From Dehalococcoidia bacterium (GTDB taxonomy: Bacteria; Chloroflexota; Dehalococcoidia; Bin125), in the NCBI GenBank assembly GCA_965203165.1, contig OZ241849.1, positions 1,680,563 to 1,744,562 of the forward strand: DNA of 64,000 bases, read 5' to 3'. Positions 5,876 to 18,399 of the stretch are shown piece after piece. The stretch's first letter is position 1; each line of letters begins with the position of its first letter. Made by a program: the position numbers and the translations under genes. The notes under the pieces were generated by a model. That model ran no database searches. It saw only the letters and a list, made by a program, of their open reading frames with translations, and was not told the DNA's origin.

Positions 5876-5934
5876 GCCGAACACCACCGAACACAGCCGA
5901 ACACAGCCGAACACAGCCGAACACCACCGAACAG
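5876..5934. repeat. 11-bp tandem repeat (ccgaacacagc/ccgaacaccac), about 5 units
   Basis: Seen directly in the sequence. Confidence 0.8.
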
Positions 5935-6059: not shown

Positions 6060-6520
6060 ACTCCGTCACACCCGCGCCCACAGCTCCGTCATACCCGCGC
6101 TTGCCGCGGGTATCTCGCCGTGCCGAGCACCAAGCCCCGTTCCCGCCACCGCCACCGTCATACCCGCGCCCACAGCTCTGTCATACCCGCGCTTGCCGCG
6201 GGTACCCCGCCGCGCCGAGCACCAAGCCCCGTTCCCGCCACCGCCACCGTCATACCCGCGCCCAAAGCTCCGTCATACCCGCGCTTGCCGCGGGTATCTC
6301 GCCGCGCCGAGCACCAAGCCCCGTTCCCGCCACCGCCACCGTCATACCCGCGCCCAAAGCTCCGTCATACCCGCGCTTGCCGCGGGTATCTCGCCGCGCC
6401 GAGCACCAAGCCCCGTTCCCGCCACCGCCACCGTCATACCCGCGCCCAAAGCTCCGTCATACCCGCGCTTGCCGCGGGTACCCCGCCGTGCCGAGCACCA
6501 AGCCCCGTTCCCGTCACAGC
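6060..6520. repeat. 92-bp tandem repeat, about 5 units, each carrying a REP1 hairpin (tacccgcg-cttgc-cgcgggta). Flanked by 43-bp direct repeats (agcaccccaaacccacccccgccacttaccaagacctaccaaa) at about 5950-5995 and 6515-6560
   Basis: Period of 92 bp between successive gtcatacccgcgcttgccgcgggta occurrences (6089, 6181, 6273, 6365, 6457). Confidence 0.85.
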
Positions 6521-9076: not shown

Positions 9077-9319
9077 TCAGCCCTCCACGACATCGCCGGA
9101 GACCGGGTCGATCCGCACGCCCTTTTCGACGACCCAGGCAAGCCCGCGCTCGATCTCGTCGGCGTCGCCTTCGAGTTCGAGCACGACCCAGCCGAAATCC
9201 TGCTCGACAGCGGCCATGCGGATGTTGGTCACGACCTCGAACTCGCGGCCGAGCAGGTAGATGACCGGCTCGCGGACGGCGTCGCCCTCGAAGGTGAAGC
9301 GGACTCGGCGCGTGGCCAT
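9077..9319 (-). CDS. Stand-alone NIL-domain protein (MetN C-terminal-like small ferredoxin-fold domain)
   Basis: 80-aa product resembling the NIL domain. Located immediately downstream of a threonine-synthase-like gene. Confidence 0.5.
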   Translation of the reverse strand: MATRRVRFTFEGDAVREPVIYLLGREFEVVTNIRMAAVEQDFGWVVLELEGDADEIERGLAWVVEKGVRIDPVSGDVVEG

Positions 9320-9358
9320 GGCGGCTCTCCTGCCCGGCTTGGGGCGCGGCTGGCTTGC

Positions 9359-10594
9359 TCAGCTCTGCCCGGCGGCGGCGAATGCGTCCTCAAACGATTG
9401 CAGCGTGCCCTCGACCGGAATCGGCCGAGTCACGTGCGGCTCGACGGCGTCGGCCGTTTTGAGGCCGCCGCCGGTGATGAAGGCGACGGTCGATTCGTCG
9501 GGGTCGATGATCTCGCGCTGGAGCGCCTGGCGCAGCCCGGCGATCGTCACGCCGCCGGCGGTCTCCGCGAAGACGCCCTCGCTCTCCGCGAGCAGCTGGA
9601 TGCCCTCGACGACTTCGGCGTCGCTGACCGAGGCCGCCCCGCCGTCGGTCGCCGCCATCGTCTTGAGCGCGTAGTAGCCGTCCGCCGGGTTGCCGATCGC
9701 CAGGCTCTTGGCGATCGTGTCCGGCTTGACCGGGCGGATGTTGGTCGTGCCGTTCTGCCAGGCGGTCGCGATCGGCGAGCAGCCCGTCGCCTGCGCGCCG
9801 ACCATCCGCACCTCCGACTCGTCGATCAGCCCGTAGCTCTGCAGCTCCTCGAAGCCCTTGTGGATCTTGGTGAAGAGCGAGCCGGAGGCCATCGGCGCAA
9901 CGCACTGCCGCGGCGCCCGCCAGCCCAACTGCTCCGCCACCTCAAACGCGAGCGTGCGCGAGCCCTCCGAGTAATAGGGCCGCACATTGATGTTGACGAA
10001 CGCCCAGTGCCGGTTGTCGGCCAGCTCCGAGCAGAGCCGGTTGACATCGTCGTAGGAGCCGTTCACCGCGACGATCGTGGGGTGATAGATCGCCGAGCCG
10101 AGCACTTTGCCGGCTTCGAGGTCGTGCGGGATGAAGACGACCGCCCGCATCCCGGCCCGCGCGGCGTGCGCCGAAACCGCGTTGGCCAGGTTGCCGGTCG
10201 AGGCGCACGCCAGCGTCTCGAAGCCCAGCTGACGCGCCCGGCTGCTGGCCACCGCGACCACCCGATCCTTGAACGACCAGGAGGGATTGCAGGTGTCGTT
10301 CTTGATCCAGAGCTCGCGCATCCCAAGCCGGCGGGCCAGATTGTCGGCGCGCAGCAGCGGCGTGCAGCCCACGTTGAGGTCGACGATGTAGTCGGCGTCC
10401 ACGGGCAGCATGTCCTTGTAGCGCCAGATCGAGCGCGGGCCGGCCTCGATCCGTTCGCGCGTCACGCGCGCCTGAATCGCGCCCCGGTCGTATTGCACTT
10501 CGAGCGGGCCGAAGCAGAAATCGCAGACGTTGATCGGGTCGAGCGGAAACTCGCGGCTGCACTCACGGCAGGCGAGGTGTGTGGCGTTGGTCAT
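9359..10594 (-). CDS. Threonine synthase family PLP enzyme with an N-terminal Zn-ribbon (ThrC or ThrC-like sulfhydrylase)
   Basis: CxxC...CxxC ribbon. PLP lysine motif SFKDR. Fold-type II PLP enzyme of about 410 aa. Confidence 0.8.
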   Translation of the reverse strand: MTNATHLACRECSREFPLDPINVCDFCFGPLEVQYDRGAIQARVTRERIEAGPRSIWRYKDMLPVDADYIVDLNVGCTPLLRADNLARRLGMRELWIKNDTCNPSWSFKDRVVAVASSRARQLGFETLACASTGNLANAVSAHAARAGMRAVVFIPHDLEAGKVLGSAIYHPTIVAVNGSYDDVNRLCSELADNRHWAFVNINVRPYYSEGSRTLAFEVAEQLGWRAPRQCVAPMASGSLFTKIHKGFEELQSYGLIDESEVRMVGAQATGCSPIATAWQNGTTNIRPVKPDTIAKSLAIGNPADGYYALKTMAATDGGAASVSDAEVVEGIQLLAESEGVFAETAGGVTIAGLRQALQREIIDPDESTVAFITGGGLKTADAVEPHVTRPIPVEGTLQSFEDAFAAAGQS

Positions 10595-10741: not shown

Positions 10742-11284
10742 TCACGCGACGGCCCAGGTGGGGGTTTCGATTTGGTGGATGTTGTTGGTGTTGACGATGG
10801 TTAGCAGTTCGGCGATTTGGAGCTGGTCGGGGGGGATGGCGCGGGAGGGGGCTAAGTCGGCCAGGGGGCGGAGGACGAATGCGCGCTCGCGGAGGCGGGG
10901 GTGGGGGATGTTGAGGCGGGGGTGGGCGACGGTTTGGGAGCCGTAGAGCAGGATGTCGATGTCGATGGCGCGCGGCCCCCAGCGGCGCTCGCTGCGGACG
11001 CGGCCGAGGCGGGCTTCGATGGCCTGCGTTTGGTCGAGCAGGTCGAGCGGCGCGAGGTTGGTTCGGCCGCGCAGGGCGGCGTTGAGGAAGGGCGGCTGGT
11101 CTGCGTCGCCCCAGGGGGGGGTTTCGTAGAGGGCGGAGACGCGGACGTCGGCGAGGATGGCGCGCAGCGCGGCGGCGGCGGCGCGCAGCGCGGCGCGGCG
11201 GTCGCCGAGATTCGCGCCGAGCCCGAGGAAGACATCGACGGTGGGGGCATCGGGCGCGGCGGGCAGATTGGGCATGTCAGGCAC
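10742..11284 (-). CDS. folK: 2-amino-4-hydroxy-6-hydroxymethyldihydropteridine pyrophosphokinase (HPPK)
   Basis: Motifs VFLGLGANLGD and RWGPRAIDIDIL. Confidence 0.85.
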   Translation of the reverse strand: MPDMPNLPAAPDAPTVDVFLGLGANLGDRRAALRAAAAALRAILADVRVSALYETPPWGDADQPPFLNAALRGRTNLAPLDLLDQTQAIEARLGRVRSERRWGPRAIDIDILLYGSQTVAHPRLNIPHPRLRERAFVLRPLADLAPSRAIPPDQLQIAELLTIVNTNNIHQIETPTWAVA

Positions 11285-12101
11285 GGCGGACCACGGCGTC
11301 GGCGATTTTGGCGACGCGGATCATTTCGGGCACATCGTGGACGCGCAGGAGGTCCGCGCCGTTGGCGACGGCGATGGCGGCGGCGGCGGCGGAGCCCTCG
11401 AAGCGCTCGCGCGGGGACCAGCCGAACTGCCCGCCGGTCAGGCGTTTGCGCGAGAGGCCGGCCAGCAGCGGCCGTCCGGCGGCGCGCAGCTCGCGCAGGC
11501 GGTCGAGGATTTCGTAGTTCTGCCCGGGCGGCCAGCCGAAGCCGAAGCCGGGATCGAGGATCACGCGCTGCTCGGGAATGCCGGCGGCGCGGGCGCAATC
11601 GAGCGAGGCGGCGAAGCCGTTGAGCAGGGCGGCGACGGGATCGGCGGCGGCGGGGCGTCCGCGCCGGTTGTGCATCGCGATCACGGGCGCGCCGTAGCGC
11701 GCGGCGATCTCGGCGAGGCGGGGATCGCCGCGCAGGCCGTTGATGTCGTTGAGCGCGGCTGCGCCGGCGCAGAGCGCGGCTTCGGCGACTTCCGGCTTGG
11801 TCGTGTCGATGCTGATCGGCGCGGCGACTCGGTTGGCGCGGATCGCTTCGAGCACGGGCAGCACGCGGGCCAGCTCGACTTCGAGCGGGACGGGCTGGAA
11901 GCCGGGCCGAGTGGATTCGCCGCCGAGGTCGATCAGGTCGACGCCGTCGCGGCACATTTGCAGCGCGCGCTCAACCGCGGCGTCGACGTCGGACAGCCCG
12001 TCGCCGGCGAAGGAGTCGGGCGAGAGGTTGAGGATGCCGACGATGTAGGTGCGGGAGCCCCAGACGAACTCGCGGCCGGCGATGCTGAGCGGGGCGGGCA
12101 T
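11277..12101 (-). CDS. folP: Dihydropteroate synthase
   Basis: Motifs GILNLSPDSF and DLIDLGGESTRPG of the pterin-binding domain. Overlaps folK by 8 nt. Confidence 0.9.
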   Translation of the reverse strand: MPAPLSIAGREFVWGSRTYIVGILNLSPDSFAGDGLSDVDAAVERALQMCRDGVDLIDLGGESTRPGFQPVPLEVELARVLPVLEAIRANRVAAPISIDTTKPEVAEAALCAGAAALNDINGLRGDPRLAEIAARYGAPVIAMHNRRGRPAAADPVAALLNGFAASLDCARAAGIPEQRVILDPGFGFGWPPGQNYEILDRLRELRAAGRPLLAGLSRKRLTGGQFGWSPRERFEGSAAAAAIAVANGADLLRVHDVPEMIRVAKIADAVVRRA

Positions 12102-12104
12102 GGG

Positions 12105-12641
12105 TCAGAGCTCGCGCTCGCGGACGCGGGGGCGTCCGTCCTGCTGGATGGTTTCGAGCAGCAGGCGCCGCGGGGGCGCGTCTGTCTCGCCGATTTCGAG
12201 GGCGATTTCGCTGGGCACCACCGAGTCGGGCTCCGCGCCTTCGTCAATCCGCCAGGCGCGCACGCCGGGCTCGGCGTCCATCAGCGTGACGAGCACCCAG
12301 AACGGCCAGGGATTGGGCCCGCGGTGCAGGCGGGCGATGTTGAGGTCGGTCGGAGACGGCCGCGCTTCGCTGGCGACATGCGAGTGGTAGATCACGAGCA
12401 TGTCGCCGTCGCTGCGCTCAATCGCGTTGTAGAGGTGAAGCAGTTCCTGCGGGGGGATGTTAAAGCGCCAGGGGGAGGCTTCGGCGTTGGTGGTGCGGTA
12501 GAGGGTGAGCGCGCCGTCGGCGGCGCGCGCGATGATGCCGCAGCACTCGTTGGGCGCGTCCTGCTGCGCGTGCGCGATCATCTCGTCGACCAGCTGCTGC
12601 GGGAGCGTGAGCGTGGGTTGGTCAGTCATTAGGTCGGTCAT
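12105..12641 (-). CDS. JAMM/MPN+ (Mov34) metalloprotease, Mec+/CysO-hydrolase-like
   Basis: JAMM motif ECCGII...HSHVASEARPSPTDL. Start taken at MTDLMTDQ, with ATGA overlap to the upstream gene. The track's N-terminal extension was rejected as Arg/Pro-rich. Confidence 0.8.
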   Translation of the reverse strand: MTDLMTDQPTLTLPQQLVDEMIAHAQQDAPNECCGIIARAADGALTLYRTTNAEASPWRFNIPPQELLHLYNAIERSDGDMLVIYHSHVASEARPSPTDLNIARLHRGPNPWPFWVLVTLMDAEPGVRAWRIDEGAEPDSVVPSEIALEIGETDAPPRRLLLETIQQDGRPRVREREL

Positions 12642-13252
12642 CGGGCTGCCGCTGTCTGCGTCGGCTGGCTGTTGGACCAGAAGGTACGCGCTTCGTGGTG
12701 GGGGACCTCTTCGCCCCAGCTGTCCCAGCCGGGCGCGCGGCTGCGGGCGAAGAGCTCGATCTTGGACTGGTCGGGGAACATTCGCTCGATGCGGTCGCGG
12801 ACCTCGCGCGGTTTCTCGGAGTGCCGCCCGCGCGGCGCGCTGACCAGCTGGCGAACGTCGCGGCGGCCGCGCGGCTGGGGGATGCGCCCGCGTTTGAAGA
12901 CGAGGCAGAGCTCGCACTGCGAGAGCGTGTAGTGGCCGGGGTTGACGCGCTGCTTGTCCCAGATGAAAGCGACGGTGGCCCAGGCGAAGCCCCAGGCTTT
13001 GCCCAGCTCGATCGCCTGATCGAGGTGCGGCGAGGTGGCCCAGAGGAAGAGCACGCAGTCGTCGGCTGCGATCTCCTGCACGGGCAGTTGCGCCAGGTCC
13101 CGGCTGGCGACGGTGGAAAAGTGCCGCGCCGCGCCGCCGCTGTCGCCGCTGCCGGGCCCGGCGTGCTGCAGCTGGCCTTTGTAGTCCCAGGGCGGGTCGG
13201 CGTAGATCACGGCGTAGCGCCGCTGCGGGAGCGGGGGGAACTCGGTCAGCAT
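12638..13252 (-). CDS. MT-A70 family (DPPW) adenine methyltransferase
   Basis: Hallmark YADPPWDY motif and a 204-aa length typical of the bacterial MT-A70 clade. Confidence 0.75.
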   Translation of the reverse strand: MLTEFPPLPQRRYAVIYADPPWDYKGQLQHAGPGSGDSGGAARHFSTVASRDLAQLPVQEIAADDCVLFLWATSPHLDQAIELGKAWGFAWATVAFIWDKQRVNPGHYTLSQCELCLVFKRGRIPQPRGRRDVRQLVSAPRGRHSEKPREVRDRIERMFPDQSKIELFARSRAPGWDSWGEEVPHHEARTFWSNSQPTQTAAAR

Positions 13253-13644
13253 GTCGGCTCCGGGCGCCAGTCGCGCAGCGGGCCGTCGTCGTGGCAGGCG
13301 CCGGGCGTGAGCTGCATCTTGAGCAGCGTGCGGCTGAGCTGCGGCGCGATCAGGTGGTCGAGCCAGTGCTCCCGCTCGTCTTCGGGGACGATCTGCGCGA
13401 GGTCGGCGAAGCGAATGTGGATCTCGTGCTCGTCGGCGACGATGCCGAAGTCGAGCACCGGCTTGCCCGGCCGCAGCAGGCGGCCGATCGTGTCGCTGCG
13501 CAGGATGCGGTTGTCGGGGCGCTCGAGGTAGCGCTCAAGCACGCCGGCGCGGAAGCGCAGGGGCAGCGCGGCCGCGTCGCCGCTGGCGGCGGCGCGCGCG
13601 ACCGTGCGCCGCCAGACGGGGTCCGAGGGCGGGTCCGCGGGCAT
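13246..13644 (-). CDS. Hypothetical protein (132 aa) translationally coupled to the MT-A70 gene
   Basis: GC3-rich ORF with a 7-nt overlap to the downstream gene. No recognisable domain. Confidence 0.4.
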   Translation of the reverse strand: MPADPPSDPVWRRTVARAAASGDAAALPLRFRAGVLERYLERPDNRILRSDTIGRLLRPGKPVLDFGIVADEHEIHIRFADLAQIVPEDEREHWLDHLIAPQLSRTLLKMQLTPGACHDDGPLRDWRPEPTC

Positions 13645-13653
13645 CTCGCGCGC

Positions 13654-14499
13654 TCAGGCGGAGGGGTTGTCGATCGGCACGCCGACCACGCTGCCGTACT
13701 CGGTCCAGGAGCCGTCGTAGTTGGTCGAGTTCTCGATGCCCAGCAGGTAGCGCAGCGCGAACCAGCTGTGCGAGGAGCGCTCGCCGATGCGGCAGTAGGC
13801 GATCACCGGCTGGTCGCCGCTGATGCCCTTGCTCCCGTAAATCTCGCGCAGCTCGTCGGCCGGCTTGAAGGTGCCGTCCTCGGCGACGGCGCTGGCCCAG
13901 GGAATGTTGGACGCGCCGGGCACGTGGCCCTTGCGCTGCGCGGTTTCGGGCAGGCCGGGCGGGGCCATGATCACGCCGTTGAACTCGTCGGGCGAGCGCA
14001 CATCGACCAGCTGGCCGCCCACGCCGATGTGGGCGATCACGTCGGGCAGCTTGGCGCGGATCGACTCGTCGCGCTCGGCGACCGCGATCGAGCCCGCGGC
14101 CGGCGCGGGGGCGTCGGTGCTGGTCGGGCGGCTCTCGGCCAGCCACTTGACCCGCCCGCCGTCCATCAGCGCGGTGTTGGCCACGCCGTACATCTCGAGC
14201 ATCCAGAGCGCGTAGGCCGCGAACCAGTTGTTGTTGTCGCCGTAGAGCACGATCTGCGAGTCGTCGTTCGCGCCCGCGCCGCGCAGCAGCGTTTGCACGG
14301 TCTCGCGGCTGGCCACATCGCGCTGCACCTGATCCTGCAGCTGGCTGGTCCAGTCCCAGGCCACCGCGCCGGGCGGGTGGCCCTCGTCGTACGCGCCGGT
14401 GTCGACGTCGACTTCGATCAGGCAGACGGCGGGGTCGTCGAGGTGCTCGGCGACCCACTGCGTGCTGACCAGCTTTTCGGGGTGTGCGTATTCGGTCAT
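13654..14499 (-). CDS. sseA: Thiosulfate/3-mercaptopyruvate sulfurtransferase (tandem rhodanese domains)
   Basis: Two rhodanese domains and the active-site loop CRIGERSS. Confidence 0.85.
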   Translation of the reverse strand: MTEYAHPEKLVSTQWVAEHLDDPAVCLIEVDVDTGAYDEGHPPGAVAWDWTSQLQDQVQRDVASRETVQTLLRGAGANDDSQIVLYGDNNNWFAAYALWMLEMYGVANTALMDGGRVKWLAESRPTSTDAPAPAAGSIAVAERDESIRAKLPDVIAHIGVGGQLVDVRSPDEFNGVIMAPPGLPETAQRKGHVPGASNIPWASAVAEDGTFKPADELREIYGSKGISGDQPVIAYCRIGERSSHSWFALRYLLGIENSTNYDGSWTEYGSVVGVPIDNPSA

Positions 14500-14563: not shown

Positions 14564-15544
14564 TCACCACCAGATTTTGCCCTCGATCGTTTCGTCGCCG
14601 GCGATGTCCTCGTAGTCGCGCGCCCAGAGGCCGGTGGAGAGGTACTTCCAGCCGCCGTCGGCGAGCAGGACGACGATGTGGGCGGTGTCGGCGCGCTCGG
14701 CGATGCGCTGCGCGGCGCGGACCGCCGCGCCGCAGGAGATGCCGGCGAAGACGCCCTCCTCTTCGAGCAGCGATTTGGTCACGGCGAAGGAGGTGCGGCT
14801 GTCGATCACGATGCGTCCGTCGAGCACGGACTCGTCGAGCACCGGCGGGATGTAGCCCTCGTCGAGGCTGCGCAGCCCCTGCACGAGGTCGCCGGGGTGC
14901 GGCGCGGCGGCGACGACTTTGATCTCGGCGCGCTGTTCTTTGAGGTAGCGGCCCACGCCGGTCAGCGTGCCGCCGGTGCCCAGCCCGGCGACGAAGTGGG
15001 TGATCTCCGGGCAGTCGCGCAGGATTTCGGGGCCGGTCGTCTCGTAGTGCGCGTTGGGGTTGGCGGCGTTTTCGTATTGCATGGGCATGAAGACGCTGGG
15101 GTCTTCGGCGTAGAGCTGTTTGGCCATGCGCACCGCGCCGTTGCTGCCCTGCTCGCCGGGCGAGAGGATCACTTCCGCGCCGAAGAAGGTCAGCAGGTCG
15201 CGCCGCTCGACGCTCACGCTCTCGGGCATCACGCAGCGCACCGGATGGCCGCTGAGCCGGCCGATCATCGCGATCGCCAGCCCGGTGTTGCCGCTGGTCG
15301 GCTCAAGGATCGTTTGGCCGGGCTGCAGCGAGCCGTCCGCGTGGGCGGCATCGAGCATGGACCGGGCGATGCGGTCTTTGACCGAGCCGGTCGGGTTCTG
15401 GCCCTCGAGCTTGACCCAGATCGCGGCGTCGGGATTGGGCGAGAGGTTGTTGAGCCGGACCAGCGGCGTGTTGCCGATCGTCTCCAGCAGGGAGCCGAAG
15501 CGGGCGGGCGGCGCAGCCACGGCGGCAGGGGCGGCGGTGGTCAT
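14564..15544 (-). CDS. cysM: Cysteine synthase B-like (CysM, the CysO-thiocarboxylate-dependent type)
   Basis: PLP motif SVKDR, fold-type II. The start overlaps the CysO stop (ATGA). Confidence 0.85.
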   Translation of the reverse strand: MTTAAPAAVAAPPARFGSLLETIGNTPLVRLNNLSPNPDAAIWVKLEGQNPTGSVKDRIARSMLDAAHADGSLQPGQTILEPTSGNTGLAIAMIGRLSGHPVRCVMPESVSVERRDLLTFFGAEVILSPGEQGSNGAVRMAKQLYAEDPSVFMPMQYENAANPNAHYETTGPEILRDCPEITHFVAGLGTGGTLTGVGRYLKEQRAEIKVVAAAPHPGDLVQGLRSLDEGYIPPVLDESVLDGRIVIDSRTSFAVTKSLLEEEGVFAGISCGAAVRAAQRIAERADTAHIVVLLADGGWKYLSTGLWARDYEDIAGDETIEGKIWW

Positions 15545-15819
15545 CGGCGGCCGCCCGCCAGGGCCGGCAGAATCGCCAGCACGTCGCCGTCGCTCAGCGC
15601 GGTTTCGAGACCCTCCAGGAAGCGGATGTCTTCGTCGTTGAGGAAGATGTTGACGAAGCGGCGCAGTTCGCCCTGCTCGAGCAGTTGGTCGCCGATGCCG
15701 GGGTAGGCGCGTTCGAGCGAGGCGAGCAGGTCGCCGACGTTGGCCGATTCGAGTTGGACGGACTTCTGCCCGTCGGTGAACTTTTGCAGCATCGACGGGA
15801 CGCGGACTTCAACCGGCAT
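15541..15819 (-). CDS. cysO: MoaD/ThiS-family sulfur-carrier protein CysO with a C-terminal Gly-Gly-Arg-Arg tail
   Basis: 92-aa beta-grasp protein ending ...ILPALAGGRR. Sits directly upstream of cysM. Confidence 0.8.
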   Translation of the reverse strand: MPVEVRVPSMLQKFTDGQKSVQLESANVGDLLASLERAYPGIGDQLLEQGELRRFVNIFLNDEDIRFLEGLETALSDGDVLAILPALAGGRR

Positions 15820-15856: not shown

Positions 15857-16960
15857 CTAGCCGCCGGCCGCGGCTGCGGGGCCCTCGTGGAAGGGCGAGC
15901 CGCAGAATTCTTCGTAGTCGATCAGCTCGGTGACGCTGGGCGCGTCGCCGCAGAGCGGGCAGGCGGGGTCGCGGCGGATTTTGACGGTGCGGAAGTCCAT
16001 CGCCAGCGCGTCGTAGAGCAGCAGGCGGTTCTTGAGCGGCTCGCCCTGCTCCAGCAGCACCTTGATCGCCTCGGTGGCCTGGATCGCGCCGATCGTGCCC
16101 GGCAGCACCCCGAGCACCCCCGCCTCCGAGCAGGAGGGCACCATCCCCGGCGGCGGCGGGCTGGGGTAGAGGCAGCGGTAGCAGCCCTGCCCGGGGAAGA
16201 ACGTGGTGACCTGCCCCTCGAAGAGGAAGATGCTGCCGTCGACGAGGATCTTCTCGGCCAGGAACGCGGCGTCGTTGACCAGGTAGCGGGTGGCGAAGTT
16301 GTCCGCGCCGTTGATGATCACGTCGTACTGCGGGATGATCTCCATCGCGTTTTCGGAGGTCAGCGGCTGGGTGTGGGTCTGGACGACGATGTTGGGGTTG
16401 AGGTCGGCGATGCGGTCCTGCGCGGATTCGACTTTGGGGCGTCCGATGTCGCTGGTGCCGTGGATGATCTGGCGTTGGAGGTTGGAGCGGTCGACGACGT
16501 CGAAGTCGACGATGCCGAGGGTGCCGATGCCGGCGGCGGCGAGGTAGACGAGCACGGGCGAGCCGAGCCCGCCCGCGCCGACGGCGAGCACTTTGCCGTC
16601 GATCAGCTTGCGCTGCCCGAGGGGGCCGACCTGGTCCATGATCAGGTGGCGGGAGTAGCGCTCGACCATTTCGGGCGTCATGGCCGCGCCGCCGGCGAGC
16701 GCGGGAATCACGGCCACTTCATCGCCGTCGCTGACCAGGGTGTCGGTGCCCTGCAGTGCGCGAATCTCCTGGCTGTTGAGATAGACGTTGACGTGCTCGA
16801 GCAGCTCCTGCTCGCCGTCGAAGACCATTTCGCCGAAACCCGGGTAGCGCTGGTCGAGGTCGCGCAGCACGCCGTGGACATCGCTGCCGCCGGCCTCGAC
16901 GAAGGTGCGGTTGCCGGTGATCTTGCGGAAGGGGGTGGGAATGTAGACCTTGACGGGCAT
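15857..16960 (-). CDS. In-frame fusion of a MoaD/CysO-like ubiquitin-like domain (91 aa, ending ...IPALAGG) and a ThiF/MoeB-type E1 adenylyltransferase (274 aa) joined by Ala-Ala
   Basis: ATG at 16960 with GAAGGAA about 8 nt upstream. No stop codon between GG and the E1 Rossmann motif (LAVGAGGLGSP). E1 CxxC pairs are present and there is no rhodanese domain. The track's 887-aa ORF N-terminal extension was rejected. Confidence 0.75.
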   Translation of the reverse strand: MPVKVYIPTPFRKITGNRTFVEAGGSDVHGVLRDLDQRYPGFGEMVFDGEQELLEHVNVYLNSQEIRALQGTDTLVSDGDEVAVIPALAGGAAMTPEMVERYSRHLIMDQVGPLGQRKLIDGKVLAVGAGGLGSPVLVYLAAAGIGTLGIVDFDVVDRSNLQRQIIHGTSDIGRPKVESAQDRIADLNPNIVVQTHTQPLTSENAMEIIPQYDVIINGADNFATRYLVNDAAFLAEKILVDGSIFLFEGQVTTFFPGQGCYRCLYPSPPPPGMVPSCSEAGVLGVLPGTIGAIQATEAIKVLLEQGEPLKNRLLLYDALAMDFRTVKIRRDPACPLCGDAPSVTELIDYEEFCGSPFHEGPAAAAGG

Positions 16961-16983: not shown

Positions 16984-17919
16984 TCAGTCGTTGTCGAGCG
17001 GCATGCTGAGGTAGCGCTCGCCGGTGTCGCAGATCGTGGTGACGACGCGGCGGCCGGGGCCGAGCTGGCGGGCGATTTCGACGGCGGCGTGGACATTCGC
17101 GCCGGAGGAGATGCCGGCGAGCACGCCTTCCTCGCGGGTCAGCCGGCTGGTCATCGCGATCGCGTCCTCGTCGCTCACGCCGATCACCTCGTCGTAGATC
17201 TCGCGGTTCAGGACGCCGGGCACAAACGACGCGCCGATGCCCTGGATTTGGTGGACGGCGAAGCGTCCGCCCTGCAGGACGGGCGAGCGCAGCGGTTCGA
17301 CGGCGACGATTCGCAGGTCGGGCTTGCGCTCGCGGAGCCACTCGCCGACGCCCGTGATCGTACCGCCCGTGCCCACGCCGGTCACGAACGCGTCGAGTTC
17401 GCCGTCCAGCGCGGCCCAGATTTCGGGCGCGGTGCTGCGGCGGTGGATTTCCGGGTTGGAACGGTTGAGGAACTGCTGGGGCATGAAGTAGCCCGGTTCG
17501 GCCGCCAGCTCTTCGGCGGCGAAGACGGCCCCGGTCATGCCCTCGATCGCGGGCGTGAGCAGGACTTCCGCGCCGAAGCGCTCCAGCAGCCGGCGGCGTT
17601 CGCGGCTCATGTCCTCGGGCATCGTCAGGATCAGCCGGTAGCCCTTGACGGCGCAGACCAGCGCCAGGCCGACGCCGGTGTTGCCGGAGGTGGGCTCGAC
17701 GATCGCGTCGCCGGGCTGCAGCGCGCCGCTGCACTCGGCGTCCTCGATCATCGCGCGGGCGATGCGGTCTTTGACCGAGCCGCCGGGGTTGAGCGATTCG
17801 AGCTTGGCGACGAGCTCGGCGGCGGCGGGCGGCGCGACCCGGCTGAGCCGCAGCATCGGCGTCGCGCCGATCAGGTCGAGCACGGTTTCGGCGACTGGAG
17901 GCCGCTGGATGGTCGTCAC
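16984..17919 (-). CDS. cysK: Cysteine synthase A (O-acetylserine sulfhydrylase)
   Basis: PLP motif SVKDR and the TSGNTG loop, 311 aa. Confidence 0.9.
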   Translation of the reverse strand: MTTIQRPPVAETVLDLIGATPMLRLSRVAPPAAAELVAKLESLNPGGSVKDRIARAMIEDAECSGALQPGDAIVEPTSGNTGVGLALVCAVKGYRLILTMPEDMSRERRRLLERFGAEVLLTPAIEGMTGAVFAAEELAAEPGYFMPQQFLNRSNPEIHRRSTAPEIWAALDGELDAFVTGVGTGGTITGVGEWLRERKPDLRIVAVEPLRSPVLQGGRFAVHQIQGIGASFVPGVLNREIYDEVIGVSDEDAIAMTSRLTREEGVLAGISSGANVHAAVEIARQLGPGRRVVTTICDTGERYLSMPLDND

Positions 17920-17964: not shown

Positions 17965-18399
17965 TCAGATGTGGTAGCGGCCGCCGGCAGCGGCCTCCTG
18001 GCGGGCGAGGTCTTCGACGGTGCGCCCGCCGAGCACCTGCAGAATGGCCGCCTGCACATCCGCCCAGAGGCGGACCTGTGCGGCGGCCCCCGTACAGCGC
18101 TCGACGGGCGCTTCGTCGAGGCAGGCGGCGGGCACGATCGGGCCTTCGAGCGCCTGCACGACGGCATCGAGCCGGATCGCGTCGGCGGGCAGCGCCAGCT
18201 GGTGTCCGCCCTGCGCGCCGCGCGTCGAGCGGATGAAGCCGGCCGTGCGCAGGCGTCCCAGCACCTGCCCCACGAGCGAGGCGGGAATCGCCTGGCGCAG
18301 CGCGATCTCGCTGCTGGGGATCGGCCCCGCGCCGGCCTGCTGGGCCAAATCCACGAGCGCGCGAATGCCGTAATCGCTCTTGCTGGACAGCTTCATCAT
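17965..18399 (-). CDS. Rrf2-family transcriptional regulator (CymR/IscR-like)
   Basis: N-terminal wHTH (SSKSDYGIRALVDLA). Diverges from cysH. Confidence 0.85.
   Translation of the reverse strand: MMKLSSKSDYGIRALVDLAQQAGAGPIPSSEIALRQAIPASLVGQVLGRLRTAGFIRSTRGAQGGHQLALPADAIRLDAVVQALEGPIVPAACLDEAPVERCTGAAAQVRLWADVQAAILQVLGGRTVEDLARQEAAAGGRYHI

What the first reader, a model, noticed from the sequence alone, without database searches (positions are those of the whole stretch)
12638..13644. MT-A70 (DPPW) methyltransferase and a 132-aa hypothetical embedded in a sulfur-metabolism operon
Both genes are translationally coupled to their neighbours: a 7-nt overlap and an ATGA overlap with the JAMM gene. 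MT-A70 enzymes are m6A DNA/RNA methyltransferases. None is known as part of the CysO/CysM pathway. It could be a hitch-hiking orphan DNA methylase, or a functional link between sulfur-carrier chemistry and nucleic-acid modification.
Basis: inference. Interest (0 to 1): 0.6.

Follow-up and report, generated by a model that had tools for sequence, protein, structure and literature searches.

The report
Orphan MunI-type methylase lodged in sulfur operon
The MT-A70 gene is an ordinary leftover DNA methylase from a MunI-type restriction system. It was inserted into, and then retained in, a cysteine/sulfur-carrier operon of a Dehalococcoidia lineage. The neighbouring 132-aa "hypothetical" is the real operon member: an unannotated Chloroflexota protein family that almost always sits beside the rhodanese and JAMM genes.

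Summary
On the minus strand lie a 132-aa ORF (13246-13644), a 204-aa MT-A70/DPPW methyltransferase (12638-13252) and a JAB/JAMM gene. They are joined by ATGCTGA and ATGA overlaps, inside Rrf2-CysK-ThiS/ThiF-CysO-CysM-rhodanese-[hyp132-MT-A70]-JAB-FolP-FolK.

The two genes have different histories.

- **MT-A70.** It is an M.MunI-like N6-adenine DNA methylase without a restriction enzyme. A MAG with 98% identical flanking DNA has the segment between hyp132 and JAB replaced by an intact MunI-family endonuclease plus a 76%-identical MT-A70. Another relative has the same pair, and a third has a frameshifted endonuclease.
- **Distribution.** Of 80 species-representative genomes with close homologues (67-90% identity), 30 Dehalococcoidia carry the gene directly upstream of JAB. 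The other 50, in five phyla, carry it in unrelated, mostly co-oriented gene arrays.
- **hyp132.** Distant family members in 48 metagenomic loci sit next to rhodanese and/or JAB in 44 cases. None of the 48 has an MT-A70.

So Rhod-hyp132-JAB is ancestral and the methylase is a clade-specific, long-retained insertion. It is not a link between sulfur-carrier chemistry and nucleic-acid modification. hyp132 has no Pfam hit and no significant fold match. It has an invariant Cys and is probably a partner of the rhodanese.

The parts
12638..13252 (-). MT-A70 (M.MunI-like, beta-class) N6-adenine DNA methyltransferase, 204 aa, with no cognate endonuclease in the window (orphan)
   Evidence: Pfam PF05063 full length, E 5.8e-24. 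PHROG_359 'DNA methyltransferase' 1.7e-66. PADLOC MTase_II 4.2e-61. PDB relatives are Tetrahymena MTA1 and METTL3. DPPW is read in the sequence.
13246..13644 (-). hyp132: member of an unannotated small-protein family (about 120-135 aa) of Chloroflexota that is syntenic with rhodanese and JAB. Invariant residues are R49, G67, C117 and G121, and the C-terminal motif is PGxCxDDGxxRxW.
12105..12641 (-). JAB/JAMM (Mec/desampylase-like) metalloprotease. An alternative start lies at 12629.
   Evidence: Pfam PF14464 2.4e-21. NCBIfam desampylase 5e-15, below cutoff. Start ambiguity.
12618..12641 (-). 12-nt tandem duplication ATGACCGACCTA|ATGACTGACCAA at the MT-A70/JAB junction. It is probably a recombination scar that carries a second JAB start codon.
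   Evidence: Sequence. L041 has only ATGACTGACCAA. Identity to L041 returns to 98-100% from about 12625.
12630..13255 (-). Exchangeable cassette slot. This segment is only about 70% identical at nucleotide level to the otherwise 98%-identical relative L041, where it is replaced by a MunI-family REase plus a different MT-A70 allele.
13654..14499 (-). Two-domain rhodanese sulfurtransferase (281 aa), the conserved neighbour of hyp132
   Evidence: Pfam PF00581 4.9e-28, two stretches. Adjacent to hyp132-family genes in 35 of 48 distant loci.
14564..15544 (-). CysM-like PLP cysteine synthase
   Evidence: TIGR01136 357.6 bits, above cutoff.
15541..15819 (-). CysO/ThiS/MoaD-type sulfur carrier protein (ends ...ALAGGRR)
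   Evidence: Pfam PF02597 7e-16. TIGR01687 above cutoff.
15857..16960 (-). ThiS-ThiF fusion (a sulfur-carrier domain fused to an E1-like adenylyltransferase)
   Evidence: Pfam ThiS plus ThiF. Translation.
16984..17919 (-). CysK cysteine synthase A
   Evidence: TIGR01139 421.8 bits, above cutoff.
17965..18399 (-). Rrf2-family regulator, first gene of the array
   Evidence: Pfam PF02082 4.8e-31.
10742..12101 (-). FolP (11277-12101) and FolK (10742-11284), downstream of JAB in the same array
   Evidence: Syntenic Pterin_bind and HPPK genes in L001 and L002. tblastn synteny in 30 loci.

Best explanation
The 204-aa gene encodes a solitary (orphan) Type II, M.MunI-like MT-A70 N6-adenine DNA methyltransferase. 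A MunI-type restriction-modification cassette (REase then MTase) was inserted between hyp132 and JAB in an ancestor of one Dehalococcoidia lineage. In most descendants, including this window, the endonuclease has been lost. The methylase has been kept under purifying selection and is read as part of the host's long co-oriented gene array; co-transcription is inferred from the overlaps. The slot between the hyp132 stop and the JAB start still exchanges cassettes by homologous recombination through the flanking genes.

The enzyme most likely methylates the adenine of a short palindromic site with an AATT core, such as CAATTG. That specificity is inferred from the partner endonuclease of the sister alleles and is not shown. 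It has no mechanistic role in CysO/CysM sulfur-carrier chemistry.

The 132-aa protein is a separate matter. It is a conserved, vertically inherited component of the rhodanese-JAB neighbourhood. It is probably a partner of the rhodanese, for example a sulfur-relay or regulatory subunit that uses its invariant C-terminal cysteine. The genomic association is shown. The mechanism is inference.
For: **Family.**
- Full-length MT-A70 match with DPPW, and strong matches to phage DNA-MTase and Type II MTase profiles.

**Restriction-modification origin.**
- L041 is a Dehalococcoidia MAG, OZ241913.1. Its DNA is 98% identical to the window from 19500 to 13256 and again from about 12625 onward. Between those points it has a 178-aa ORF plus an MT-A70 allele that is only 76% identical.
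- The 178-aa ORF matches Pfam RestrictionMunI (54 bits against a cutoff of 25) and PDB 1D02 MunI (5.8e-12). The PD...ExK and GNAHER residues align.
- The same REase is intact in L012, frameshifted in L001/L017, and present downstream of the MTase in L052. There is none in the window.

**Profiling.**
- 30 of 80 species-representative genomes with close homologues have the gene directly upstream of JAB in the full operon. The other 50 (other Dehalococcoidia/SAR202, Acidobacteriota, Alphaproteobacteria, Acidimicrobiia, Gemmatimonadota) have none of the operon genes nearby.
- In those genomes it sits between unrelated co-oriented genes, for example AddB-like/AddA-like nuclease-helicase genes, Cys_Met_Meta_PP/NfeD and EutA/MFS, or next to an IS element.

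**Vertical retention in the clade.**
- MT-A70 pairwise identity tracks core-operon identity (Spearman 0.78). The identity is higher than for JAB, FolP or hyp132 at the same core divergence. The outliers are the REase-bearing alleles L041 and L012.

**Ancestral state.**
- In 48 metagenomic loci found with distant hyp132-family members, 35 have rhodanese adjacent, 16 have JAB downstream (7 within 150 nt), and 44 have at least one of the two. None has an MT-A70, even at E<=10.
- In L010 an inversion separates ...Rhod-hyp132 from MT-A70-JAB-FolP-FolK.
Against: - No methylation data exist. DNA rather than RNA as substrate, and the AATT-core specificity, are inferred from family membership and from the sister alleles' endonuclease.
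- In that endonuclease the residue aligned with the Arg just before MunI's GNAHER motif is Ala. From memory, that Arg (R115) reads the outer C:G pair, so the outer bases of the site may differ from CAATTG.
- Only 64 kb of this genome is available, so an unlinked cognate endonuclease elsewhere cannot be excluded.
- The methylase is fixed directly upstream of JAB, mostly with an ATGA or GTGA overlap, across 30 species. This long retention shows it is useful to the host, and a clade-specific co-option tied to this operon's expression is not excluded.
- CAATTG occurs 0 times in the window against 2.8 expected, which is too weak to count either way.
- For hyp132 there is no structural or biochemical evidence of function.
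Confidence: 0.82

Rival explanations
1. There is a functional link between sulfur-carrier chemistry and nucleic-acid modification. In this reading the MT-A70 is a dedicated component of the CysO/JAMM pathway, and translational coupling to JAB reflects a shared function.
For: The gene is fixed directly upstream of JAB, usually with an ATGA/GTGA overlap, in all 30 Dehalococcoidia operon loci. This holds even after the inversion in L010 and after cassette replacement in L041.
Against: - The Rhod-hyp132-JAB neighbourhoods of more distant relatives never contain it (0 of 48).
- The same methylase, at 67-80% identity, lives in unrelated operons in 50 other genomes of five phyla.
- Sister alleles in the same slot come with a MunI-family endonuclease, which marks them as restriction-modification modules.
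- The downstream genes FolP and FolK show that the array mixes unrelated housekeeping functions.
Confidence: 0.04
2. hyp132 and MT-A70 form a two-gene module. hyp132 would be a small restriction endonuclease, a controller protein or a target-recognition partner of the methylase.
For: There is a 7-nt overlap in the window and in its closest relatives L003-L006 and L009. hyp132 has no recognisable domain.
Against: - The hyp132 family occurs without any MT-A70 in 48 of 48 distant loci, and is tied to rhodanese and JAB instead.
- In many clade members, 365-1116 bp of unrelated cargo separate it from the methylase.
- In L041 and L012 the true endonuclease is inserted between the two genes.
- The inversion in L010 leaves hyp132 with the rhodanese and MT-A70 with JAB.
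- Close MT-A70 homologues in other phyla have no hyp132 nearby.
Confidence: 0.04
3. The methylase is half of a still-active restriction-modification system whose endonuclease is encoded elsewhere in this genome. It would then be a defence gene rather than an orphan.
For: Intact MunI-family endonucleases circulate in the same lineage at this locus (L041, L012). Only 64 kb of the genome can be inspected.
Against: - No MunI-like ORF is found anywhere in the window (best tblastn E 0.96).
- From general knowledge, Type II R and M genes are almost always adjacent.
- Most clade members have hyp132 and MT-A70 abutting, with no room for an endonuclease, and L001/L017 shows the endonuclease decaying.
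Confidence: 0.08

Closest known systems
M.MunI / MunI Type II restriction-modification system (CAATTG), the bacterial circularly permuted (beta-class) relatives of MT-A70
   Same: The methylase has an MT-A70 fold with an N-terminal DPPW motif and is about 200 aa. Sister alleles at the same locus are preceded by a MunI-family PD-(D/E)XK endonuclease in which the catalytic PD...ExK and GNAHER motifs are conserved. Iyer et al. place M.MunI in the permuted N6A-MTase group (PMC4738411).
   Different: In the window the endonuclease is absent. The gene is embedded in a housekeeping operon and is inherited vertically across a clade. Specificity is untested, and the residue aligned with the Arg preceding GNAHER in MunI is Ala in the sister endonuclease.
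Conserved solitary DNA adenine methyltransferases (Dam, CcrM)
   Same: It has no cognate endonuclease, occupies a fixed chromosomal position, and is conserved across a whole lineage under purifying selection.
   Different: It belongs to a different MTase family (MT-A70, not the Dam or CcrM families). No evidence of a regulatory role exists. The locus still swaps with complete R-M cassettes.
Eukaryotic MT-A70 enzymes (METTL3/METTL14, ciliate MTA1/AMT1)
   Same: The same Pfam family and DPPW catalytic motif. These are the best PDB sequence matches (E about 1e-11 to 1e-12).
   Different: Those enzymes act as heterodimers or multi-subunit complexes on RNA or on ApT in DNA. This is a minimal bacterial single-domain enzyme of restriction-modification ancestry.
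Mycobacterial mec-cysO-cysM sulfur-carrier cysteine pathway (with MoeZR supplying the E1 and rhodanese activities)
   Same: The window operon has the CysO-type carrier, a CysM-type synthase, a JAB/JAMM protease, a ThiF-type E1 and a rhodanese. The pathway background is in PMC3227635 (listed, not read in detail).
   Different: Here the rhodanese is a separate two-domain protein, a second ThiS is fused to the N-terminus of ThiF, and the array also carries hyp132. hyp132 is a family not described for that pathway, as far as Pfam, NCBIfam and the literature searches here show.
Small conserved proteins encoded next to actinobacterial rhodaneses (SseC/DUF1416 beside CysA2/CysA3). This is recalled from memory and not tested.
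   Same: A short uncharacterised protein is consistently encoded beside a two-domain rhodanese.
   Different: hyp132 gives no Pfam hit at all, including DUF1416, so it is not a member. The resemblance is only one of gene arrangement.

Membership tests
MT-A70 / M.MunI-like beta-class N6-adenine methyltransferase | Full-length match to the MT-A70 profile above the curated threshold | tested here: met
   PF05063, residues 13-182 against profile positions 1-172 of 172, 85.4 bits against a cutoff of 23.9.
MT-A70 / M.MunI-like beta-class N6-adenine methyltransferase | Catalytic (D/N)PP(W/Y) motif IV located near the N-terminus (permuted order) | tested here: met
   YADPPWDY at residues 17-24. It aligns with the DPPW of Tetrahymena MTA1 and is present in every homologue N-terminus printed for the genomic loci, although one (L009) reads DPPWHY after the motif.
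MT-A70 / M.MunI-like beta-class N6-adenine methyltransferase | m6A methylation of DNA at a defined site | not testable with these tools
   This needs methylome data or an enzyme assay. It is inferred only from the MunI-family endonuclease partner of sister alleles.
Complete Type II restriction-modification system | Cognate restriction endonuclease encoded next to the methylase | tested here: not met
   hyp132 and MT-A70 overlap, which leaves no room for an endonuclease. No MunI-like ORF is found in the 64-kb window (best E 0.96). The feature is met in L041 and L012.
Solitary (orphan) lineage-conserved methyltransferase | Same locus, no endonuclease, conserved across a clade with sequence divergence tracking the host's | tested here: met
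   30 Dehalococcoidia species-representative loci. Spearman 0.78 against core genes, and identity higher than for the flanking JAB, FolP and hyp132.
CysO/CysM/Mec sulfur-carrier pathway (MT-A70 as a component) | Co-occurrence with the pathway genes across relatives | tested here: not met
   0 of 48 distant Rhod-hyp132-JAB loci contain it. 50 of 80 genomes with close MT-A70 homologues lack any operon gene nearby.
CysO/CysM/Mec sulfur-carrier neighbourhood (hyp132 as a component) | Co-occurrence with rhodanese and/or JAB across distant relatives | tested here: met
   44 of 48 loci. Three of the four exceptions are contigs too short to tell, and the fourth has a rhodanese 580 nt away with an intervening gene.
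CysO/CysM/Mec sulfur-carrier neighbourhood (hyp132 as a component) | Biochemical role in sulfur transfer | not testable with these tools
   The only indications are an invariant Cys117 in a conserved C-terminal motif and the synteny.

The most novel reading that the evidence does not exclude
One M.MunI-like MT-A70 is 67-80% identical across Dehalococcoidia, Acidobacteriota, Alphaproteobacteria, Acidimicrobiia and Gemmatimonadota MAGs, several series of which come from sponges. In each lineage it is kept as an endonuclease-free gene wired into housekeeping operons. It may therefore act as a shared, community-wide methylation mark. Such a mark would protect co-resident symbionts against MunI-type endonucleases circulating among them and would ease DNA exchange between phyla. 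A second, independent novelty would be that hyp132 is a new sulfur-relay subunit of the rhodanese/CysO system.
Probability: 0.2. Interest if true: 0.6.

Novelty: new member of a known kind. Interest (0 to 1): 0.35.

Why it matters
The result removes a tempting but false lead, that an m6A enzyme is part of sulfur-carrier metabolism. It gives a clean example of how a restriction-modification cassette decays into a conserved orphan methylase fixed inside an essential operon, with the intact, frameshifted and endonuclease-free states all seen in related genomes.

It also redirects attention to the 132-aa gene. This family has at least 1279 sequence clusters and no annotation, and it is almost invariably encoded next to the rhodanese and often next to the JAMM protease. 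That makes it a concrete, testable candidate for a missing component of protein-thiocarboxylate sulfur mobilisation in Chloroflexota.

Tried and rejected
- **hyp132 annotation.** Pfam, NCBIfam, PHROG, PADLOC and a PDB sequence search found nothing.
- **Metagenome scan.** The narrower alignment A3 worked.
- **Site avoidance.** CAATTG gives 0 observed against 2.8 expected in the window, and 6 against 3.1 in pooled relatives, so the test is uninformative.
- **Promoter and terminator scan.** Nothing exceeded the shuffled controls.
- **Phage origin.** IMG/VR contigs carry relatives at 56-68% identity and isolated phages at 45% or less. These are more distant than the cross-phylum cellular copies, so no direct phage donor was identified.
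- **Literature.** No paper links MT-A70 with sponge symbionts.
- **Pairwise-alignment script.** A first version timed out and was redone from multiple alignments.
Full report
**1. Observation**

The region lies in a DNA stretch of about 70% GC. Its minus strand carries a tight, co-oriented array:

| Gene | Coordinates |
|---|---|
| Rrf2 regulator | 17965-18399 |
| CysK | 16984-17919 |
| ThiS-ThiF fusion | 15857-16960 |
| CysO/ThiS carrier | 15541-15819 |
| CysM | 14564-15544 |
| Two-domain rhodanese | 13654-14499 |
| 132-aa ORF (hyp132) | 13246-13644 |
| 204-aa MT-A70 | 12638-13252 |
| JAB/JAMM | 12105-12641 |
| FolP | 11277-12101 |
| FolK | 10742-11284 |

- The MT-A70 assignment is solid. It is a full-length PF05063 match with DPPW at residues 19-22.
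- The ATGA overlap with JAB lies within a 12-nt tandem duplication, ATGACCGACCTA|ATGACTGACCAA. The closest relative lacks the first copy, so JAB may start at 12629.
- No terminator-like site lies on the coding strand inside the array.

**2. What the methyltransferase is**

- It matches a phage "DNA methyltransferase" PHROG (1.7e-66) and a PADLOC Type II MTase profile end to end (4.2e-61).
- Its solved-structure relatives are ciliate MTA1 and METTL3.

The decisive evidence comes from L041, a Dehalococcoidia MAG chromosome (OZ241913.1).

- Its DNA is 98% identical to the window from 19500 down to 13256, which is the end of hyp132. It is 98-100% identical again from about 12625, the start of JAB.
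- Between those points it differs. It carries an extra 178-aa ORF followed by an MT-A70 allele that is only 76% identical in protein and about 70% in DNA.
- The 178-aa ORF is a MunI-family Type II endonuclease. It scores 54 bits on Pfam RestrictionMunI (cutoff 25) and 5.8e-12 against PDB 1D02.
- Its VPD, VEIK and GNAHER residues align with MunI's P-A, VEGK and GNAHER. The alanine in 1D02 is, from memory, the D83A crystallisation mutant.
- The same endonuclease is intact in L012, split by a frameshift in L001/L017, and found downstream of the methylase in an Acidimicrobiales contig (L052). It is absent from the window.

The window gene is therefore the methylase half of a MunI-type restriction-modification module whose endonuclease is gone. 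Iyer et al. place M.MunI among the circularly permuted N6A-MTases related to MT-A70 (PMC4738411).

**3.

A scan of one genome per species returned 80 loci encoding 67-90% identical homologues.

- **In the operon.** Thirty loci, all Dehalococcoidia or Chloroflexota, have the complete operon with the methylase directly upstream of JAB.
- **Elsewhere.** Fifty loci have none of the operon genes within 7 kb. They come from other Dehalococcoidia/SAR202, Acidobacteriota, Alphaproteobacteria, Acidimicrobiia and Gemmatimonadota.
- **Contexts elsewhere.** In those genomes the gene is usually wedged between co-oriented, unrelated genes. Examples are a PDDEXK_1 nuclease and a UvrD-helicase/nuclease gene (AddB/AddA-like), Cys_Met_Meta_PP and NfeD, EutA and an MFS transporter, and an alpha/beta-hydrolase-like and a glyoxalase-like ORF (these two judged by eye). 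One copy lies next to an IS element.
- **Tree.** A neighbour-joining tree groups alleles largely by lineage and context.
- **Within the operon clade.** MT-A70 identity tracks core-gene identity (Spearman 0.78). It is higher than the identity of JAB, FolP or hyp132 at equal core divergence, which argues for vertical inheritance under purifying selection.
- **Exceptions.** The exceptions involve the two loci that still carry the endonuclease, L041 and L012. Each has an MT-A70 only 75-76% identical to that of its nearest relatives (the window for L041; L044 and L049 for L012), while their core genes are 98-100% identical.
- **Other mosaicism.** JAB alleles are occasionally mosaic too. L001/L017 carries two tandem MT-A70 copies, each followed by the same JAB 5' sequence. 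This points to cassette exchange by recombination through the flanks.

Several MAG series in the list come from sponges: SB06xx from Ircinia ramosa and APA from Aplysina aerophoba (PMC11706023), and PNGco, which is listed among sponge-associated Entoporibacteria (PMC7883664). Viral contigs carry only more distant relatives, at 56-68% identity.

**4. What the 132-aa gene is**

- It has 30 close homologues, all without annotation, that share contigs with the MT-A70 clade.
- A profile search finds 64 representative clusters of proteins of about 120-135 aa. A second profile search finds at least 1279 clusters. The few named ones are Chloroflexota "hypothetical protein".
- The family has invariant R49, G67, C117 and G121. 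Its conserved C-terminal motif is PGxCxDDGxxRxW, which often ends the protein.
- The AF2 model is confident for residues 30-100 and shows a small alpha/beta unit. It matches no solved fold significantly.

Genomic context gives the clearest signal.

- In 48 metagenomic loci recovered with distant members (33-52% identical to the window protein), 35 have a rhodanese adjacent on the same strand, in either order.
- Sixteen have JAB downstream, seven of them within 150 nt. Forty-four have at least one of the two.
- Of the four without either, three are contigs too short to judge. The fourth has the rhodanese 580 nt away.
- None contains an MT-A70, even at E<=10.
- In L010 an inversion leaves hyp132 with the rhodanese and MT-A70 with JAB.

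Rhod-hyp132-JAB is therefore the ancestral arrangement. hyp132 is a genuine member of the sulfur-mobilisation neighbourhood. The methylase, originally as an R-M cassette, was inserted between hyp132 and JAB in one lineage. In other clade members the same spacer holds other cargo, namely a coiled-coil/TM protein and PaREP1.

**5. Mechanism and confidence**

*Shown*
- Family membership of the methylase.
- Absence of an endonuclease in the window.
- Presence of a MunI-family endonuclease in sister alleles at the identical slot.
- Clade-specific presence of the methylase.
- Independent synteny of hyp132 with rhodanese and JAB.

*Inferred*
- DNA m6A activity at an AATT-core palindrome.
- Co-transcription with the operon.
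- Retention because methylation protects against MunI-type enzymes circulating in the community, or because it has acquired a regulatory use.
- hyp132 acting with the rhodanese, possibly as a persulfide acceptor through Cys117.

I put 0.82 on the orphan-methylase explanation, and about 0.75 on hyp132 being functionally tied to the rhodanese/JAB system. The specific sulfur-relay mechanism gets about 0.3.

**6. Comparison, novelty and verdict**

- The methylase is a new member of a known kind: an M.MunI-like solitary methylase derived from restriction-modification decay. It is not a new link between sulfur and nucleic-acid chemistry.
- Two aspects are moderately interesting. One is the cross-phylum spread of a 67-80% identical, endonuclease-free methylase lodged in housekeeping operons of lineages that include sponge-derived MAGs. 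The other is the unannotated hyp132 family as a candidate new component of protein-thiocarboxylate sulfur mobilisation.
- Overall interest is 0.35.

Noticed in passing
window 6063-6517 (also 5876-5933): A 92-bp tandem repeat, 4.9 copies at 96% identity, whose unit contains a short palindrome (ATACCCGCG...CGCGGGTAT). Just upstream is a 10/20-bp repeat.
   Followed up: no
window 15857-16960 (-): A ThiS-type carrier domain ending ...ALAGG is fused in frame to a ThiF E1 (continuing ...AAMTPEM...), and the whole protein also ends ...AAAAGG. The fusion is conserved at 86-94% identity across the clade. The JAB protease could release the carrier, but that is inference only.
   Followed up: partly
window 9077-10594 (-): A threonine-synthase-like PLP enzyme (411 aa) is followed by an 80-aa NIL-domain protein ending ...VVEG, downstream of FolK. 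The same pair lies near the operon in L010. From memory it resembles a MetM/MetO-type sulfur-carrier homocysteine pair.
   Followed up: no
L092 808-1449; L094 5353-5958; L120 5540-6178: In some distant loci a conserved Cys-rich ORF of about 200-213 aa (CDxCG...CxxC motifs) lies between hyp132 and JAB. It is another unannotated member of this neighbourhood.
   Followed up: no
L011, L012, L023, L049, L058 (hyp132|MT-A70 spacer); L021, L023, L001: The spacer between hyp132 and MT-A70 holds variable cargo. One type is a 142-156-aa protein with an RDERE-repeat coiled coil and a C-terminal TM segment. Another is a PaREP1-family protein. Insertions of about 1.1 kb also occur between the rhodanese and hyp132 in L007 and L030.
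   Followed up: partly
L030, L004-L006, L007/L008 (JAB gene): JAB alleles are mosaic. For example, L030 JAB is 59-62% identical to relatives whose core genes are 94-99% identical. Recombination at this hotspot therefore sometimes extends into JAB.
   Followed up: no
L001/L017 8396-8927 and 8935-10913: Two tandem MT-A70 copies (75% and 70% identical to the window's) sit with a frameshifted MunI-like endonuclease and a PaREP1 gene. Both copies are followed by the same 25 nt of the JAB 5' end.
   Followed up: partly
L085 4036-11052: In a Longimicrobiales MAG the homologous MT-A70 sits between a PDDEXK_1 nuclease gene and a UvrD-helicase/nuclease gene (AddB/AddA-like), overlapping the downstream gene by 4 nt. 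A BsuBI/PstI-type endonuclease gene lies 6.5 kb away.
   Followed up: no
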